Below are positions 1 to 36,000 of a DNA stretch of 64,000 nt, piece after piece. The stretch lies in NCBI RefSeq assembly GCF_056712565.1, contig NZ_CM160072.1, one strand, 5' to 3'. Position numbers: made by a program. The number at the start of each line of letters is the position of its first letter. Positions within the stretch are counted from its first letter, which is position 1.

Positions 1-3000
1 AGAGTATCCCAAGCTCGCGTGGACCAATATCACCATTATGGTAGCCAACAGCAAAACTGTTATCGCTAATCGTCGCAAAACTGTGAATCTCAGTAACAGG
101 AGTGCTTCCGTCAACAAAAGAAGGAATAGTTCCAAGACTGGTTTTTCTCCATGGTGACGAGTGAAATGATGTACCAAAACTCCAGTATCTACCCTCGTTA
201 TTCTGATCCACATCCTGAGTATTTTGCGTCGTAACTGTAAAAGTATTTTTATCAATAACAGTAGTCACCGTCATATTCCCGGTAACACCTGTAACACCAG
301 AGTTTGAGAAGTTGACAAAATCACCAGCAAATAATCCGTGATCAGTAATGCGAATATAAGCGACTTGCTGATTTGCTGCTTTCGTTATACCACCATAAAC
401 GCGAAGGCTGCGACTCATTGGGCGATCCCACAACTCTGCAACCTGCAGTTTATTTCCTCTCACGGTCCGCGTCTCAATTACAGCAAAAAGGCGATTTCTG
501 ACAACCCCCATACTCATGCAGTGATAGTTAACTGTGGGATAGTTTTCATGTAAATCTGTAAGCCATTCCGGCGTTGTCCAGGTCTTCCCGTCATCTCCTG
601 AGCGAACCCATGCAACATGGAGGTTATTTACACCATGGCGGTCTCCAGCCATAAAAGGCGCATAGATGACATTGTCATATACAAACGTTTTATCCTGCGT
701 CCAGGCGTTGTACCACGGTGTATCTGTAATTTTAAATAACTCTCCCTGGATAAAATCTTCAGAAGCATAAAAAAGAGGCTGGCCCGGTATTCTCTCAAAT
801 AAAAAACGAGCATTTTTAAATCGACTGACATCCGGAAGAGTTGATACTTTAAAAGTAAGCCCTAATCCGTCAATTTTATAACCTGGAGATGAGGCTTCAA
901 GGCACGCGCTTATTGCAGTGGAATCGTCATTTATACCATCACCAACAGCTCCAAAATCTTTGGGGCTAATAGCATCACGCATTTTATCCTGGAACGTTCG
1001 GTACACAGCCCCAGAACCATACTGAATAAACCAACCAAAACCACCAACAACCCCGGCGATTGCAGCATCGACATAATTACGCATTGAGCGATTATTTACA
1101 GCGTCCTGCTCAAATGATGGATCTGCAAGGTTAGAAATTTTGTTTTGCTTTGCATCGTAATATTTTGCAAGCAAAGATGGTTTCATCAATGCACGTCTGA
1201 ACCACCCAAAACATTGCTGGATCAGCATCGTCAGGTAGTCAAAGGCATCTTCATGCACTTCGGGGAAAAATTTTCCCTGATTGCGAAGGTCTGTCTCCTG
1301 CACTACATCAAGCACACGATCTATCGTAATTCGCCATCCAGTAGCAAGCGGAGACGGAAGAACCACAGAACCGCCACTATAAGTGCCCGCCCCAGTTACC
1401 GTATAACCGGTATCCAGGACCAATTCTGTTACGTTCCCGTTCAGGTCAGACACCTGAACAACCAGGTCTGATTTTCTGAAAATTCGAAAAGTATACGGAA
1501 ACGATGTCGTAACGCCGTTACCGGTGTATTCGTTGTGGTCAACTTCGGTTGAGACCGTCATGTTAAATCTCCAGATAGTCGCAGCACCCGTTGCGCCGCA
1601 TATCTGGTTATTCTATTACCTGAAAAACCACATATGGATAAAAGGACTATAAATACCAATAGATATTACCTTTCGGGTAATTTGCAAAACGTGCTGGATA
1701 GCAAACAAATTATTTGTTACTGTATAAACATACAGTTATTGCATGGAGAAGATAAGATGCAGCAGTATCACTATCCACTGGAAGACGGATTTACCGAAAG
1801 GATTCACACGCCGGGAGGCGTCAGATCACTGGTGGAGGGATCGCTCTTGATGAAATTACTCCGGGATCTCGATAAGGATGGATTTAATGTCGATGGCCCA
1901 CTTGCCGAACTGACTGCACTGATTAACTACGTCACCAGCTCACAGATGTCTATGCGGGATCTGCAAACACATCTCGACTATTGTGCCGAACAATTACGAA
2001 AACAAACCAGATAAGGTTTGCAATTACCAAATGGAGTGCTTATATTTACCTTTGCGGTAAATTTACATCGCACTCCTCTTGTGCCATAGTAATCGGGCAC
2101 TGGCAAAATCCAGTGCCGGGATTGGCGTCCCGAGTTACTACAGAGGCACATATGCCGCATAAGCGGTTTTTTTATGTGTAAAGCGCACCTATTCTATGGT
2201 GGGCTGTGTGGGGGCACCGAAAGGTGCGCCGGGTCCTTTGTAGCCGGTTACGCCAACCCTGCACAGTTCACCACCAACCGATTGGCGTCGGTAGTGGTGA
2301 TTAACCTAACTACAAAGGTGATCGCCATGAATACCAAACCTTCCATCTTTTCCTTTGAGTCATCCTGCCAGATCCGTATGTTCATGATTGACGGAGAACC
2401 TTGGTTTGTCACCAAAGATGTGTGCAATGCTTTGAATATTGATGTTACACAAGCGAGAAAACTTGATAAAAAAGGCTGGAACAAAAAGGGGCTGTATTCA
2501 ATACAGACCCCTGGTGGAATACAAGAACTATCCATCGTTTCAGAATCAGGTCTCTACATCCTTATTCTGCGTTGCAAAGAGGCAATGACTGAGGGAACGA
2601 GAGCATTCAGATTTCTTGAATGGGTTACAGGCGAAGTACTTCCTCAGATCCGCCGCACCGGAAGCTACATTAAAAACTCGCTCCCGCAGGAAGAACGCAT
2701 AAAGATGGTTGCCGACCAGGTAGCCAACGCCACGGCGTCAGCAGTAATGCAGGCGATGAAGATAGAGAACAAAACCTACAGCGCCCCACTGAAGCCCGGC
2801 TACCGCAGCCTGATTCATTCGCCGTCTGGTGTTCTCGGCCTGACGGAGAACTCACTGCTGATGAATCTGCTGAACCAGTTACAGGAAGACGGGCACGACG
2901 TATCGGGCGCGGCGGCGGAGCTGACCACCATGTTCTGCTACATCGTCGGTGTGAGCAAGTGCCTGCGTGATATCCAGACGCACGCGGAGTACATCAACGA

Positions 3001-33000: not shown

Positions 33001-36000
33001 ACCGCACCGCGGCTTGAGCATTCAAGAAAGCCAGATATCGTTCGTGAAAAACTTGTGCAATTATTAGGCGATGTTTCTCGCATTGAACTGTTCGCCCGCC
33101 AGACGTCTCATGGCTTCGATGTTTGGGGTAATCAGTGCGAAGACCCGGCAGTGCAACTACACCCTGGATACGCGTTGGATATTGGCGGATTAACAAATGC
33201 ATTCAGCAATGCTCCGCTGTCACCAACAGACATCCAGGGGCGGGAGCGTGCTGCATGAACAGGGCATCACCAGCAGATTTAAGAAAATGCCTTGAAACTG
33301 CAAACATGCTTGCACACAGCGGGATCAGGTTTGTTCCAATTCCCGCTGTCACTGATGCTGAATTTGCAACACTGTCAGCAATATTCGAAAACAAAATTGA
33401 ATCACTGGCAGCAGAAGCAGAGATGGAAGAAAATCAGCAGAACTATTAAACGTTATTCCCCCGCCATCCACTTCTCAAACTTCGACGGGGAGAACGGAAT
33501 CAGATCCGTATGCTCCCCGTCAATCCATGAATCAATCATATCGGCCCACTGCTGCAACATGTAGGCGCGCTGTCTGGCGTATTCCGCTTTGTTATATACG
33601 GCGCTCACACCTTTCTGCTCATGTGCCAGAGCCTTTTCAATCCAGTCTGAAGGATAACCAGCCTCATGCAACAACGTACTGGCTGTACGGCGCATATCGT
33701 GTACGGTGAAGCCCTGAATATGCTCACCATCTTCATTTATTATTTTCACCGTTCTGTCGATCAGAGAGTTCAGCGCGGCATTAGATAATGGCTTCCGGAA
33801 ATTGTAACGACCAGGAACCAGATATTCACTTCCACCAGCGCACATCTGCAACCCAACCAATATATCCTGTGCCTGTTTAGGCAGGTAAATAACGTGCGCC
33901 CGGCTTCCCTTCATGCGGTCTGGAGGAATTGTCCATGTCCATTTTTTAAAATCTATTTCATCCCACGTTGCATTGGTGAATTCGCCCTTACGAACCATAG
34001 TGATAAGCACCAGTTTTAAAGCCATTTTCATAGTGCCCATAGCACCAATGGCATCCAGCGTGCGGAAGAACAGGCCAATTTCTTCTGGTGTCAGTGTTCG
34101 CTCTCGTGGTTTAAATATGGCGATAGACGAAGGTTTAATGTCAGCCGCAGGATTAAACAAACCATGACCACGGTCATTGGCGTGACGGTATACGCTACTG
34201 ATGATCTCCCTGGCCTGCACTGCTGTTGCCCGGCCACCGCGTTCGACAATCCGGTCACACAAATCACGAACCATTGATGTGGTAATTTCAGCCATCATTT
34301 TATTGCCAAGAACCGGAAGTATGTCACGGTCGATCACCGCCTGTTTCATTGCGCGGGTACTGTCAGCCAGGATGACGTGTTTCATATAACTGTCGGTATG
34401 TACCGCAAACGTCTCGGCACCACGAATCTTTTTGATACCGTCACGTTTAGCCGCAGCCGGTGACTGGCCTGCTTTAAGCAGCTTCTTTGCAGCAATCAGT
34501 TCTTCTCGCGCTTCTGCCAGGCTGATACCGTCACGCCCATACTGCCCGATTACCAGTGTTTCGCGGCGACCGTTGATACGGTAGTCATAGCGAAACGAGA
34601 CCGTGCCTGACGTAAGCACAGCTACATACAGCCCGTCACGATCGGAGACCTTGTACAGTTTGTCCTGCGGCTTGAGATTTTTTAATTTTGTATCGGTAAG
34701 CACAATTCACCCGTATAGAAACCATTTTCATGACGGTATGAGAGTATACCTTTAAGGTAATACCGTCACCTGTACCGACGAAAAATATGGTGTAGAGTGA
34801 ATAGAAATGAATACATAAAAACAAAAACCCTCTGTAAAAACAGAGGGTTAAATTAGTATCTGAATAGGAATGAGTTGCTATGAGTTAGCTGTTAATCATT
34901 CCCACTCAATAGTTGCTGGTGGCTTGCCGCTGATGTCATACACCACGCGGGAAATACCATTCACTTCATTGATAATGCGGTTGGAAACGCGGCCGAGGAA
35001 GTCGTACGGCAGATGTGCCCAGTGTGCGGTCATAAAGTCGATGGTTTCGACAGCACGCAGAGAGACAACCCAGTCATACTTACGACCATCGCCCATTACG
35101 CCAACGGAACGTACTGGCAAGAAGACGGTGAACGCCTGGCTGACTTTGTCGTACAGGTCCGCTTTACGCAGTTCTTCAATGAAGATGGCGTCAGCACGGC
35201 GCAGCAGGTCACAATACTCTTTCTTCACTTCTCCCAGAACACGAACGCCAAGGCCTGGTCCCGGGAACGGGTGACGGTACAACATGTCATACGGTAGGCC
35301 CAGCTCCAGACCAATCTTACGCACTTCGTCTTTGAACAGCTCTTTCAGCGGTTCAACCAGGCCCATCTTCATCTCTTTCGGCAGGCCACCCACGTTGTGG
35401 TGAGATTTGATGACGTGTGCTTTACCGGTTGCAGAAGCAGCAGATTCGATAACGTCAGGGTAGATGGTGCCCTGCGCCAGCCACTTCACGTCTTCCAGTT
35501 TCAGCGCTTCTTCATCGAATACTTCAACGAAAACGCGACCGATAATTTTACGTTTTGCTTCCGGATCGTTTTCGCCAGCCAGCGCTGACAAGAAGCGATC
35601 TTCTGCCGGTACGTGAACAATGTTCAGACCAAAGTGATCGCCAAACATATCCAGAACCTGCTCTGCTTCGTTGAGACGCAGCAGGCCGTTGTCGACGAAT
35701 ACGCAAGTCAGGTTTTTACCGATAGCGCGGTGCAACAGCATTGCGGTAACGGAGGAATCCACGCCACCAGAGAGGCCGAGGATGACTTTATCGTCGCCCA
35801 CTTGCTCGCGGATGCGGGCTACAGCGTCGTCGATAATTTTCGCTGGCGTCCACAGGGCTTCACACTGGCAGATATCACGCACAAAACGCTCCAGCATGCG
35901 CATACCCTGGCGGGTGTGAGTCACTTCCGGGTGGAACTGTACGCCATAGAAGCGTTTTTCTTCGTTGGCCATGATGGCAAACGGGCAGCTTTCGGTGCTG

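What the first reader, a model, noticed from the sequence alone, without database searches (positions are those of the whole stretch)
1665..34761. Prophage-wide family of TTACC-N5-GGTAA palindromes marks a dispersed operator regulon
The same inverted repeat occurs at 16 intergenic positions: 1665, 2045, 3085, 20480, 23622, 23639, 26556, 26618, 28564, 28902, 28932, 28949, 29661, 29723, 34745, plus a GGTAAC half-site at 29747. Nine copies have a perfect TTACC/GGTAA core, which is far above chance for 35 kb. Three copies sit between the divergent cro-like and repressor genes and two sit upstream of the early-left operon, which is what immunity operators look like. The remaining copies lie upstream of the antirepressor-like gene, the unknown morons, the nuclease-like gene, terS, the portal operon and int. 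One repressor with many scattered operators (as in P1 C1 or N15 CB) would directly silence late, antirepressor and moron genes, and I do not recall this motif from a characterised phage repressor.
Basis: seen in the sequence. Interest (0 to 1): 0.75.

Follow-up and report, generated by a model that had tools for sequence, protein, structure and literature searches.

The report
Known repressor operators of an epsilon15-like prophage
The repeated TTACC-N5-GGTAA palindromes are real and are almost certainly the binding sites of the prophage's main repressor, but the same scattered sites are already annotated as repressor-binding sites in the sister phage epsilon15, so this is a correct rediscovery, not a new system.

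Summary
The window has 10 perfect TTACC-N5-GGTAA copies against 0.04 expected, plus four one-mismatch copies and one two-mismatch copy. All lie in the 7% of the prophage that is non-coding. None occurs in prophage coding DNA or in the 29 kb of flanking chromosome.

The element is a phiV10/epsilon15-like (Uetakevirus) prophage integrated at guaA. The epsilon15 RefSeq record already annotates ATTACC-N5-GGTAAT as "protein_bind: repressor" at seven scattered positions: upstream of terS, the portal operon, the tail fibre gene, the early-left operon and ruvC.

The sites sit at matching positions in six genomes. They overlap sigma-70 promoter cores. At two promoters they form pairs exactly 62 bp apart that bracket the promoter. 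They co-occur with homologues of the SPC32H Rep protein (PDB 5D50), a non-cleavable, tetrameric repressor that is switched off by a small LexA-controlled antirepressor. That antirepressor and its LexA box are also present here.

- The 29747 half-site is a ribosome-binding site.
- The int-proximal copy overlaps integrase arm sites, so its role is ambiguous.
- The copy at 2046 controls an isrK/C4 RNA plus antirepressor module.

The parts
1666..1680 (.). Operator (perfect) in the divergent region between the tail-fibre gene (ATG 1561, - strand) and ant (ATG 1757, + strand). It lies about 40 bp upstream of the LexA box.
   Evidence: Matching sites in phiV10 20877, Tyrion 21776, epsilon15 19896 (annotated repressor site 19895-19911) and SPC32H 20013.
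1720..1735 (+). LexA box CTGTATAAACATACAG in front of ant.
   Evidence: CTGT-N8-ACAG is conserved in phiV10, Tyrion, epsilon15 and SPC32H.
1757..2014 (+). Small antirepressor Ant (85 aa).
   Evidence: 97.6% identical to phiV10 p24. 86% identical to SPC32H Ant.
2046..2060 (.). Operator (perfect). It starts at the last base of the -10 of promoter TTGCAA-17-TATATT (2018-2046), which reads into isrK, C4 and the Bro-N/Ant-like gene.
   Evidence: phiV10 20497 is the matching site.
2097..2278 (+). isrK-like sRNA (2097-2173) and C4 antisense RNA (2192-2278), upstream of the Bro-N/Ant-like ORF that ends at 3019.
   Evidence: Rfam gathering-threshold hits of 74.2 and 79.5 bits. PHROG anti-repressor hits for the ORF.
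3086..3100 (.). Operator (perfect). It starts at the last base of the -10 of TTGGCG-18-TAATAT, upstream of a 210-aa gene of unknown function (3160-3792).
20481..20495 (.). Operator (perfect) between the portal operon (p06 ATG 20390, - strand) and tRNA-Arg (20817, + strand). It overlaps the -10 of a conserved + strand promoter, TTGACA(20459)-17-TACCTT.
   Evidence: The epsilon15 matching site 2931-2947 is annotated as a repressor site.
23622..23654 (.). Tandem operators (23640 perfect, 23622 one mismatch, 18 bp apart). They lie between the terminator of the early-right operon (23674-23691) and the conserved terS start (ATG at 23619, - strand).
   Evidence: The epsilon15 site 12-27 is annotated as a repressor site. 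The tandem arrangement is shared with phiV10, Tyrion and epsilon15.
26557..26633 (-). Operator pair exactly 62 bp apart bracketing the promoter TTGATT(26599-26594)-17-TTTAAT(26576-26571) of the DUF1064 gene. The proximal operator also contains the Shine-Dalgarno sequence.
   Evidence: The epsilon15 site 35906-35922 is annotated as a repressor site.
28565..28579 (.). Weak operator (GGTAC arm) after the terminator of the cro-like gene and before the replication genes. It lies next to the palindrome AACCAGATTTGGTT (28546-28559).
   Evidence: The same one-mismatch variant is present in phiV10 and Tyrion.
28902..28964 (.). Three operators between the cro-like gene and rep: 28950 (perfect), 28933 (two mismatches; perfect in epsilon15, SPC32H and BUCT711) and 28902 (one mismatch), which overlaps the -35/spacer of the cro-like promoter.
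28635..28865 (-). Cro-like regulator (76 aa).
   Evidence: 100% identical to phiV10 p41. Matches PHROG 35, transcriptional repressor. 76% identical to epsilon15 gp39.
29020..29604 (+). Rep, the prophage repressor (194 aa). It has two HTH domains and no S24 peptidase domain.
   Evidence: Matches PDB 5d50 (SPC32H Rep) at E = 4e-42 over its full length. Pfam result. 99.5% identical to the phiV10 and ZX5 repressors. ZX5 repressor function shown by overexpression (PMC9782041).
29662..29738 (+). Operator pair exactly 62 bp apart bracketing the early-left promoter TTGACA(29696)-17-AATCAT(29724). The proximal operator starts at the last base of the -10.
   Evidence: epsilon15 sites 32554-32570 and 32616-32632 are annotated as repressor sites.
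34746..34760 (.). Ambiguous one-mismatch copy upstream of int. It is embedded between inverted copies of GTGACGGTAT, which epsilon15 annotates as integrase-binding sites.
   Evidence: The same mismatch (GGTAT arm) occurs in all six genomes.

Best explanation
The palindromes are operators of the prophage repressor Rep (29020-29604). Rep is a homologue of the epsilon15 gp38 and SPC32H Rep proteins. The 15-bp site has its two half-site centres 10 bp apart, which suits a pair of N-terminal helix-turn-helix domains. At most sites the operator lies on the core of a sigma-70 promoter, so bound Rep would block RNA polymerase. At four promoters the operator starts at the last base of the -10 hexamer. 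At the cro-like promoter it lies over the -35/spacer. At the tRNA-side promoter in the portal intergenic region it lies on the -10 itself. At the early-left promoter and the DUF1064 promoter, a second operator lies exactly 62 bp upstream, about six helical turns. One Rep tetramer could therefore hold both operators and clamp the promoter between them. Rep would thus directly silence nearly every transcription unit in the lysogen. These units are the early-left, cro/early-right, replication and DUF1064 operons, terS, the portal/tRNA region, the tail-fibre/ant region, the isrK-C4-Ant module and a 210-aa gene, plus the lysis operon in relatives. Induction does not go through Rep cleavage. DNA damage removes LexA from the box in front of the small Ant, and Ant then strips Rep from DNA. 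What is shown here: the motif statistics, the intergenic restriction, conservation at matching positions, promoter overlap, the fixed 62-bp spacing, Rep homology, and the Ant gene with its LexA box. What is inferred: that Rep rather than the Cro-like protein is the binder at every site, that a tetramer bridges the pairs, and that the late operons are repressed directly.
For: Statistics and intergenic restriction.

Prior annotation: the epsilon15 RefSeq record marks 7 of these sites as 'protein_bind: repressor / lysogeny', and their sequence is ATTACC-N5-GGTAAT.

Conservation: sites occupy matching positions in the window, phiV10, Tyrion, BUCT711, epsilon15 and SPC32H, while the spacers and flanks diverge.

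Spacing: 11 of 12 bracket pairs are spaced exactly 62 bp and one is 63 bp.

Promoter overlap.

The repressor: Rep matches PDB 5d50 at E = 4e-42. The NLVNRW segment is invariant and the N-terminal domain is 53-54% identical against 37-39% for the rest of the protein. There is no S24 peptidase domain.

Co-occurrence: of 120 IMG/VR loci holding a 62-bp pair, 99 encode a Rep homologue with an NL(V/I)(N/S)RW core. Another 18 are truncated Uetakevirus loci. Two structural relatives without Rep (phiSG1, Carin1) have no perfect site.

Induction parts: Ant is 86% identical to SPC32H Ant and has a perfect LexA box.

Literature: overexpressing the same repressor in phage ZX5 cut holin and endolysin transcripts by more than 99.9% (PMC9782041). 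SPC32H Rep binds palindromic DNA as a tetramer (PMC9638917). Its C-terminal domain has a fold linked to DNA looping (PMC9986798).
Against: No binding data for these sites could be read. The three key papers are not in the library (Kropinski 2007, Kim & Ryu 2013, Kim 2016). The epsilon15 features may be predictions only.

The Cro-like protein is better conserved than Rep (76% against 43% identity to epsilon15), so it could recognise the same motif.

At the tail-fibre and portal late promoters the operator lies 29-41 bp upstream of a different conserved box, not on the late promoter core. Direct repression of those late promoters is therefore not evident from geometry.

A 62-bp loop is very tight.

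The consensus promoter scan found fewer promoter-like sites than its shuffles did (8 against 17.3). Promoter calls therefore rest on conservation, not on the scan.
Confidence: 0.85

Rival explanations
1. The motif is mainly the target of the Cro-like protein (28635-28865), or is shared by Cro and Rep. In that case the scattered copies would turn early and accessory promoters down during lytic growth instead of silencing them in the lysogen.
For: The Cro-like protein is a PHROG 'transcriptional repressor' and is 76% identical between the window and epsilon15, more conserved than Rep. In lambdoid phages, Cro and CI share operators (established knowledge).
Against: The epsilon15 record assigns the sites to the repressor. 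The Rep recognition segment is invariant wherever the motif occurs. A second conserved palindrome, AACCA-N4-TGGTT, is available as a target for another regulator. This rival does not exclude the main explanation.
Confidence: 0.1
2. The palindromes act as RNA hairpins, for example as processing, termination or translational control elements, and not as DNA sites.
For: They are inverted repeats. Some lie in 5' leaders and contain the Shine-Dalgarno sequence (26557; 23622). epsilon15 annotates RNase III sites nearby.
Against: The stem is only 5 bp. The arm sequence is invariant across dozens of sites with no compensatory changes. Of the 35 one-mismatch variants across the six genomes, 27 break the pairing without compensation on the other arm. 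Copies lie upstream of -35 elements and in non-transcribed orientations relative to their genes. The motif occurs on both sides of divergent promoters.
Confidence: 0.02
3. The motif is a piece of a repeated promoter module recognised by RNA polymerase or a phage activator, and so is a promoter element and not an operator.
For: At four promoters the motif begins exactly at the last base of the -10. At 20481 the arm TACCTT could itself serve as the -10.
Against: The position relative to promoter elements varies. Copies lie upstream of the -35, in the spacer, at +1, or between a terminator and a start codon. That pattern is typical of operators and not of a promoter element. The site is dyad-symmetric with a 10-bp half-site spacing.
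Confidence: 0.03

Closest known systems
Salmonella phage epsilon15 gp38 repressor and its annotated binding sites (NC_004775.2; Kropinski et al. 2007, not readable here)
   Same: The palindrome is identical (ATTACC-N5-GGTAAT). The scattered layout is the same: terS, the portal operon, the tail-fibre/ant region, the early-left promoter and the ruvC/DUF1064 promoter. The 62-bp pairs and the three-operator rep/cro region are also shared.
   Different: Rep is only 42-43% identical overall. epsilon15 has a third early-left operator that this lineage has lost. This prophage has extra operators at an isrK/C4/Ant module (2046) and at a 210-aa gene (3086). The epsilon15 record annotates 7 of its 11 perfect copies.
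Salmonella phage SPC32H Rep-Ant switch (PDB 5D50, 5D4Z; Kim & Ryu 2013 and Kim et al. 2016, known to me from abstracts and from citing papers)
   Same: Rep matches over its full length (E = 4e-42). Ant is 86% identical. There is a LexA box in front of ant. Rep has no autocleavage domain. The same operators occur at the same positions in the SPC32H genome.
   Different: Which operators were footprinted in SPC32H could not be checked. This prophage also carries a second, Bro-N-type antirepressor behind isrK and C4 RNAs.
Phage P1 C1 repressor with its many dispersed operators, including Op51 of the immI (c4-icd-ant) operon (from my own knowledge)
   Same: One repressor has operators scattered over the genome in place of a single immunity region. 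One of the controlled units is a C4-RNA/antirepressor module.
   Different: The repressor protein is unrelated. P1 operators are asymmetric 17-mers bound by monomers, whereas here they are 15-bp dyads. In P1 the late genes are controlled through the activator Lpa, whereas here operators sit next to the late operons themselves.
Linear plasmid-prophage N15 CB repressor with a LexA-controlled antirepressor (from my own knowledge)
   Same: The HTH repressor is not cleaved. The SOS signal enters through a LexA-repressed antirepressor, and there is an accessory immunity locus with a small RNA.
   Different: No N15 proteins or operators were compared here. The operator sequence and the phage architecture are different.
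Lambda CI at OL/OR
   Same: There are three operators between divergent rep and cro-like genes and two or three at the early-left promoter. Binding is presumed to be cooperative or multimeric.
   Different: There is no S24 domain and no RecA-mediated cleavage. Operators also lie outside the immunity region. The pairs bracket a single promoter at 62 bp, in contrast to lambda's loop of about 2.3 kb.

Membership tests
Uetakevirus (epsilon15/SPC32H-type) Rep-operator-Ant immunity system | Repressor homologous to SPC32H Rep over its full length: N-terminal HTH DNA-binding domain, middle HTH-like domain and C-terminal tetramerisation/Ant-binding domain. | tested here: met
   phmmer hit to 5d50_A at E = 4.1e-42, residues 1-190. 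Alignment with 69 invariant columns, including NLVNRW.
Uetakevirus (epsilon15/SPC32H-type) Rep-operator-Ant immunity system | ATTACC-N5-GGTAAT palindromes at the positions annotated as repressor-binding in epsilon15. | tested here: met
Uetakevirus (epsilon15/SPC32H-type) Rep-operator-Ant immunity system | Small antirepressor gene preceded by a LexA box. | tested here: met
   Ant at 1757-2014 is 86% identical to SPC32H Ant. CTGTATAAACATACAG lies at 1720-1735.
Uetakevirus (epsilon15/SPC32H-type) Rep-operator-Ant immunity system | Repressor lacks a RecA-dependent autocleavage (S24) domain. | tested here: met
   Pfam finds only HTH-type domains.
Uetakevirus (epsilon15/SPC32H-type) Rep-operator-Ant immunity system | Rep physically binds these palindromes, as a tetramer. 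| not testable with these tools
   The only support is second-hand statements in PMC9638917 and PMC9986798. The primary papers are not held.
P1 C1-type dispersed operator regulon | C1-family repressor protein. | tested here: not met
   Rep hits only XRE/HTH_3-type families in Pfam, PHROGs and NCBIfam.
P1 C1-type dispersed operator regulon | Asymmetric 17-bp operators (consensus recalled from memory). | tested here: not met
   The sites here are symmetric 15-bp dyads.
P1 C1-type dispersed operator regulon | Operators at many separate transcription units, including a c4-RNA/antirepressor operon. | tested here: met
   10 of 12 intergenic gaps of at least 60 bp carry a site. A C4 RNA lies downstream of operator 2046. 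This is a functional resemblance only.
Lambda CI / LexA-like cleavable repressors | C-terminal S24 peptidase domain. | tested here: not met

The most novel reading that the evidence does not exclude
Rep tetramers clamp individual promoters by binding two operators fixed at 62 bp, on either side of the -35 and -10 elements. Together with single operators at nearly every intergenic gap, this would make one small protein the direct silencer of the whole 39-kb genome. A second conserved palindrome (AACCA-N4-TGGTT / CCATATRTGGTT) lies inside those brackets and at the -35 position of the late promoters. It would be the site of a second regulator that switches early promoters off and late promoters on. 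As far as I could check, neither the bracket geometry nor the second box is annotated or described.
Probability: 0.3. Interest if true: 0.45.

Novelty: already known. Interest (0 to 1): 0.25.

Why it matters
The result confirms that phiV10/epsilon15-like prophages are held silent by one non-cleavable repressor acting at operators spread over the whole genome. These prophages are common in E. coli, Salmonella, Klebsiella and Enterobacter, and here one carries a K1-type endosialidase tail spike. The SOS signal enters through a small antirepressor. The site list is a ready-made target set for ChIP, footprinting or reporter assays. The fixed 62-bp bracket is a concrete, testable prediction about how the tetrameric Rep seen in crystal structures engages DNA. 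A 2023 paper still described that mechanism as poorly characterised (PMC9986798).

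Tried and rejected
1. Chance or base composition is rejected.
2. RNA hairpins are rejected. The arms are invariant, there are no compensatory changes, and most variants break the pairing.
3. The 29747 half-site is not an operator. It aligns with the GAGGT ribosome-binding site of the first early-left gene. epsilon15 and SPC32H have a full third operator just upstream of that position, which this lineage lacks.
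4. The int-proximal copy is left ambiguous. It overlaps inverted GTGACGGTAT integrase sites annotated in epsilon15, and it carries the same mismatch in all six genomes.
5. The copy at 4273 is inside a coding region and scores 8 bits, so it is treated as chance.
6. Three primary papers could not be read: PMC2698709, PMC3807360 and PMC4983836. Full-text searches for the motif in papers on epsilon15, phiV10 or Uetakevirus found nothing relevant.
7. Sodalis phage phiSG1 turned out to be a mosaic and a poor comparator.
8. The exact source genome is not among the complete E. coli assemblies. The best match to the window's first 6 kb is 99.0% identical over 87% of the query.
9. NCBIfam gave no assignment for the p55-like and Cro-like regulators.
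10. The generic promoter scan was not enriched over its shuffles. Promoter assignments therefore rest on cross-genome conservation.
11. I could not place the ant promoter with confidence relative to operator 1666.

Full report
**Observation**

An exact search finds ten TTACC-N5-GGTAA copies in the 64-kb window (1666, 2046, 3086, 20481, 23640, 26557, 26619, 28950, 29662, 29724). Dinucleotide shuffles predict 0.04. With one mismatch allowed there are 17 against 1.07 expected.

Four listed copies have one mismatch (23622, 28565, 28902, 34746). One has two mismatches (28933). The last listed item, at 29747, is only a half-site.

I transferred a gene map from phiV10 by tblastn. On that map all ten perfect copies and all five imperfect listed copies fall in the 6.8-7.4% of the prophage that is non-coding. 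Shuffling within the intergenic segments predicts 0.002 perfect copies. Ten of the twelve intergenic gaps of at least 60 bp carry a site.

Prophage coding DNA has no perfect copy, and neither does the 29 kb of chromosome to the right. A weight matrix built only from sites in three distant relatives scores the ten perfect copies at 20-27 bits. It scores 28565, 28902 and 34746 at 15-18 bits. The best score per shuffle averages 9.9 bits.

**What the element is**

Window positions 1 to about 34,900 are a phiV10/epsilon15-like podovirus prophage (genus Uetakevirus), about 97% identical to phiV10, PAS61, ZX5 and TL-2011b. It is integrated at the 3' end of guaA, with the att core ATTGAGTGGGAATGATT at 34894 (core sequence from PMC9782041).

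The window starts inside the tail-spike gene, which in the closest E. coli genomes is an endosialidase. The lysis genes and the other attachment site lie beyond the left edge.

**Prior knowledge**

The epsilon15 RefSeq record (NC_004775.2) carries seven features of type "protein_bind, repressor, lysogeny". They lie upstream of terS, upstream of the portal operon, between the ant-like gene and the tail fibre gene, three at the early-left promoter, and one upstream of ruvC. Their sequence is ATTACC-N5-GGTAAT. This is exactly the motif and the scattered layout of the finding.

The repressor here (29020-29604) matches the crystallised Rep of Salmonella phage SPC32H at E = 4e-42 over its full length (PDB 5D50). 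It is 99.5% identical to the phiV10 and ZX5 repressors. Overexpressing the ZX5 repressor abolished free phage and cut holin and endolysin transcripts by more than 99.9% (PMC9782041).

Citing papers state that SPC32H Rep binds palindromic DNA as a tetramer (PMC9638917). They also state that its C-terminal domain belongs to a fold associated with DNA looping, and that its repression mechanism "has not been extensively characterized" (PMC9986798). The three primary papers are not in the library. I could not establish which sites were tested experimentally.

**Comparative evidence**

I scanned six genomes whose Rep proteins are 42-100% identical: the window, phiV10, Tyrion, Klebsiella phage BUCT711, epsilon15 and SPC32H. 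Each holds 8-11 perfect copies. The copies occupy the same positions relative to genes, while the five central bases and the flanks vary.

The shared positions are:
- a tandem pair 18 bp apart between a terminator and the terS start codon, in four of the six genomes
- one copy in the portal-operon/tRNA intergenic region
- one between ant and the tail fibre gene
- one upstream of the lysis operon (beyond the window's left edge)
- a pair at the early-left promoter
- a pair at the DUF1064/ruvC promoter
- three between rep and the cro-like gene
- a weak copy after the cro-like terminator

The two promoter pairs are spaced exactly 62 bp in 11 of 12 cases and 63 bp in the other.

Of these, 99 encode a Rep homologue within the fetched DNA. 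All the variants that could be read share an NL(V/I)(N/S)RW core in the recognition segment. Another 18 loci are Uetakevirus fragments cut before rep. Three are unrelated. Two structural relatives without a Rep homologue (phiSG1, Carin1) have no perfect copy.

**Geometry and mechanism**

At the early-left promoter the layout is: distal operator, 19 nt, TTGACA, 17 nt, AATCAT, proximal operator. The proximal operator starts at the last base of the -10.

The DUF1064 promoter has the same layout on the minus strand (TTGATT-17-TTTAAT). Its proximal operator also contains the ribosome-binding site, and the ATG follows 4 nt later.

The operators at 2046 and 3086 likewise start at the last base of TATATT and TAATAT hexamers that have acceptable -35 elements.

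The operator at 20481 overlaps the -10 of a conserved plus-strand promoter (TTGACA-17-TACCTT). That promoter points away from the portal operon, towards tRNA-Arg.

Between rep and the cro-like gene, the operator at 28902 lies over the -35/spacer of the cro-like promoter. The operators at 28933 and 28950 are 17 bp apart and lie further upstream.

The half-site centres are 10 bp apart, as expected for a pair of helix-turn-helix domains. The N-terminal domain of Rep is better conserved than the rest (53-54% against 37-39% identity to the Salmonella and Klebsiella proteins). Its NLVNRW segment is invariant. Pfam finds HTH domains only and no S24 peptidase domain.

The small antirepressor is present at 1757-2014 and is 86% identical to SPC32H Ant. 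A perfect LexA box lies at 1720-1735 and is conserved in the relatives.

The most likely mechanism is as follows. Rep occupies operators on promoter cores throughout the prophage. Tetramers bridge the 62-bp pairs. SOS induction acts by derepressing Ant, not by cleaving Rep. Binding, bridging and direct late-gene repression are inferences.

**Corrections and limits**

- The 29747 half-site aligns with the GAGGT ribosome-binding site of the first early-left gene. epsilon15 and SPC32H have a full third operator just upstream of that position, which this lineage has lost.
- The int-proximal copy (34746) carries the same GGTAT mismatch in all six genomes. It is embedded between inverted GTGACGGTAT elements that epsilon15 annotates as integrase-binding sites. 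It may not be an operator.
- At the tail-fibre, portal and lysis units the operator lies 29-41 bp upstream of another conserved box, not on the late promoter itself. How, or whether, Rep represses those promoters directly is open.
- The Cro-like protein is more conserved than Rep and may share the operators.

**Rival explanations**

RNA hairpins are unlikely. The stem is 5 bp, the arm sequence is invariant without compensatory changes, and 27 of the 35 one-mismatch variants break the pairing.

A promoter-element reading does not fit the variable placement relative to the -35 and -10.

**Comparison with known systems**

The system is a member of the epsilon15/SPC32H Rep-operator-Ant family. Every sequence-level defining feature that I could test is met.

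It works like the P1 C1 regulon in having scattered operators, including one at a C4-RNA/antirepressor module. It is not a member of that family, because the protein is unrelated and the operators are symmetric. It is not a lambda CI-type cleavable repressor.

**Verdict**

The finding is real and was read correctly. It is a rediscovery of operators already annotated in a sister phage, so novelty is "already known" and interest is low to moderate. Two details may be undescribed: the invariant 62-bp promoter bracket, and the second conserved box. They make the structural "trans-tetramer" model of Rep directly testable.

Noticed in passing
window 2097-2173 and 2192-2278 (+): Rfam gathering-threshold hits to the isrK Hfq-binding sRNA (74.2 bits) and the C4 antisense RNA (79.5 bits). 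They lie between the Rep-controlled promoter at 2018-2046 and the Bro-N/Ant-like ORF. This resembles the P1/P7 immI module. The ORF start at 2174 listed by the ORF finder is therefore probably wrong, and the real start is near 2320.
   Followed up: partly
window 1626-1636(-), 20429-20439(-), 26577-26587(-), 28546-28559; matching positions in L002-L006: A second conserved box, CCATATRTGGTT, which is half or all of the palindrome AACCA-N4-TGGTT. It sits at the -35 position of -35-less promoters upstream of the portal operon (CATATGTGGTTaaattGGTAATAATTTAAT in all six genomes), the tail fibre gene and the lysis operon. It also sits inside the spacer of the DUF1064 promoter, and of the early-left promoter in Tyrion and BUCT711, and next to the weak operator at 28565. 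It looks like the site of a second regulator that turns late promoters on and early promoters off. It is not annotated in the epsilon15 record. The motif count in the window alone is not significant for the 11-mer (4 against 1.6). It is significant for the palindrome (9 against 2.1).
   Followed up: partly
window 1720-1735 (+): A perfect LexA box, CTGTATAAACATACAG, lies 22 nt before the ant start codon. It is conserved in phiV10, Tyrion, epsilon15 and SPC32H.
   Followed up: yes
window 34720-34790: Inverted GTGACGGTAT ... ATACCGTCA elements flank the int-proximal palindrome-like copy. epsilon15 annotates the same 10-mer four times as an integrase-binding site.
   Followed up: partly
window 23619-23700 (-); phiV10 NC_007804.2 41-715: The phiV10 terS annotation (224 aa, starting upstream of the operators) is probably too long. 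The start ATGCCTGCTGAACC is conserved in Tyrion and epsilon15 and lies directly after the tandem operators, at window 23619.
   Followed up: partly
window 27865-28017: An iteron-like array of six copies of (A/T)TCCCGTTTTTGGGAT-type repeats at 18-24 bp spacing, inside the DnaT-like replication initiator gene. It is probably the phage replication origin.
   Followed up: partly
window 20817-20893 (+): tRNA-Arg(UCU) lies antisense to the late operon and downstream of the Rep-controlled plus-strand promoter at 20459-20487. The phage tRNA would therefore be silent in the lysogen.
   Followed up: no
window 1-1561 (-): The tail-spike gene runs off the left edge of the window. Only its N-terminal 162 aa resemble phiV10 (68% identity). 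The closest E. coli genomes annotate it as an endosialidase, which implies specificity for the K1 capsule.
   Followed up: no
window 2777-3004 (+): The C-terminal part of the Bro-N antirepressor-like protein is 42% identical to the small LexA-controlled Ant. The prophage therefore carries two proteins with the Rep-binding type of Ant domain.
   Followed up: no
L012 3790-4145 (IMG/VR contig 2716884256_000003): An unrelated, low-GC prophage has four perfect TTACC-N5-GGTAA copies in the gap between a 134-aa XRE/CI-like repressor and a Cro-like gene, and a fifth at the 3' end of the Cro-like gene. One of the four overlaps a TTGACA promoter. The same operator sequence is therefore used outside the Uetakevirus group. 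L078 and L127 show similar clusters.
   Followed up: partly
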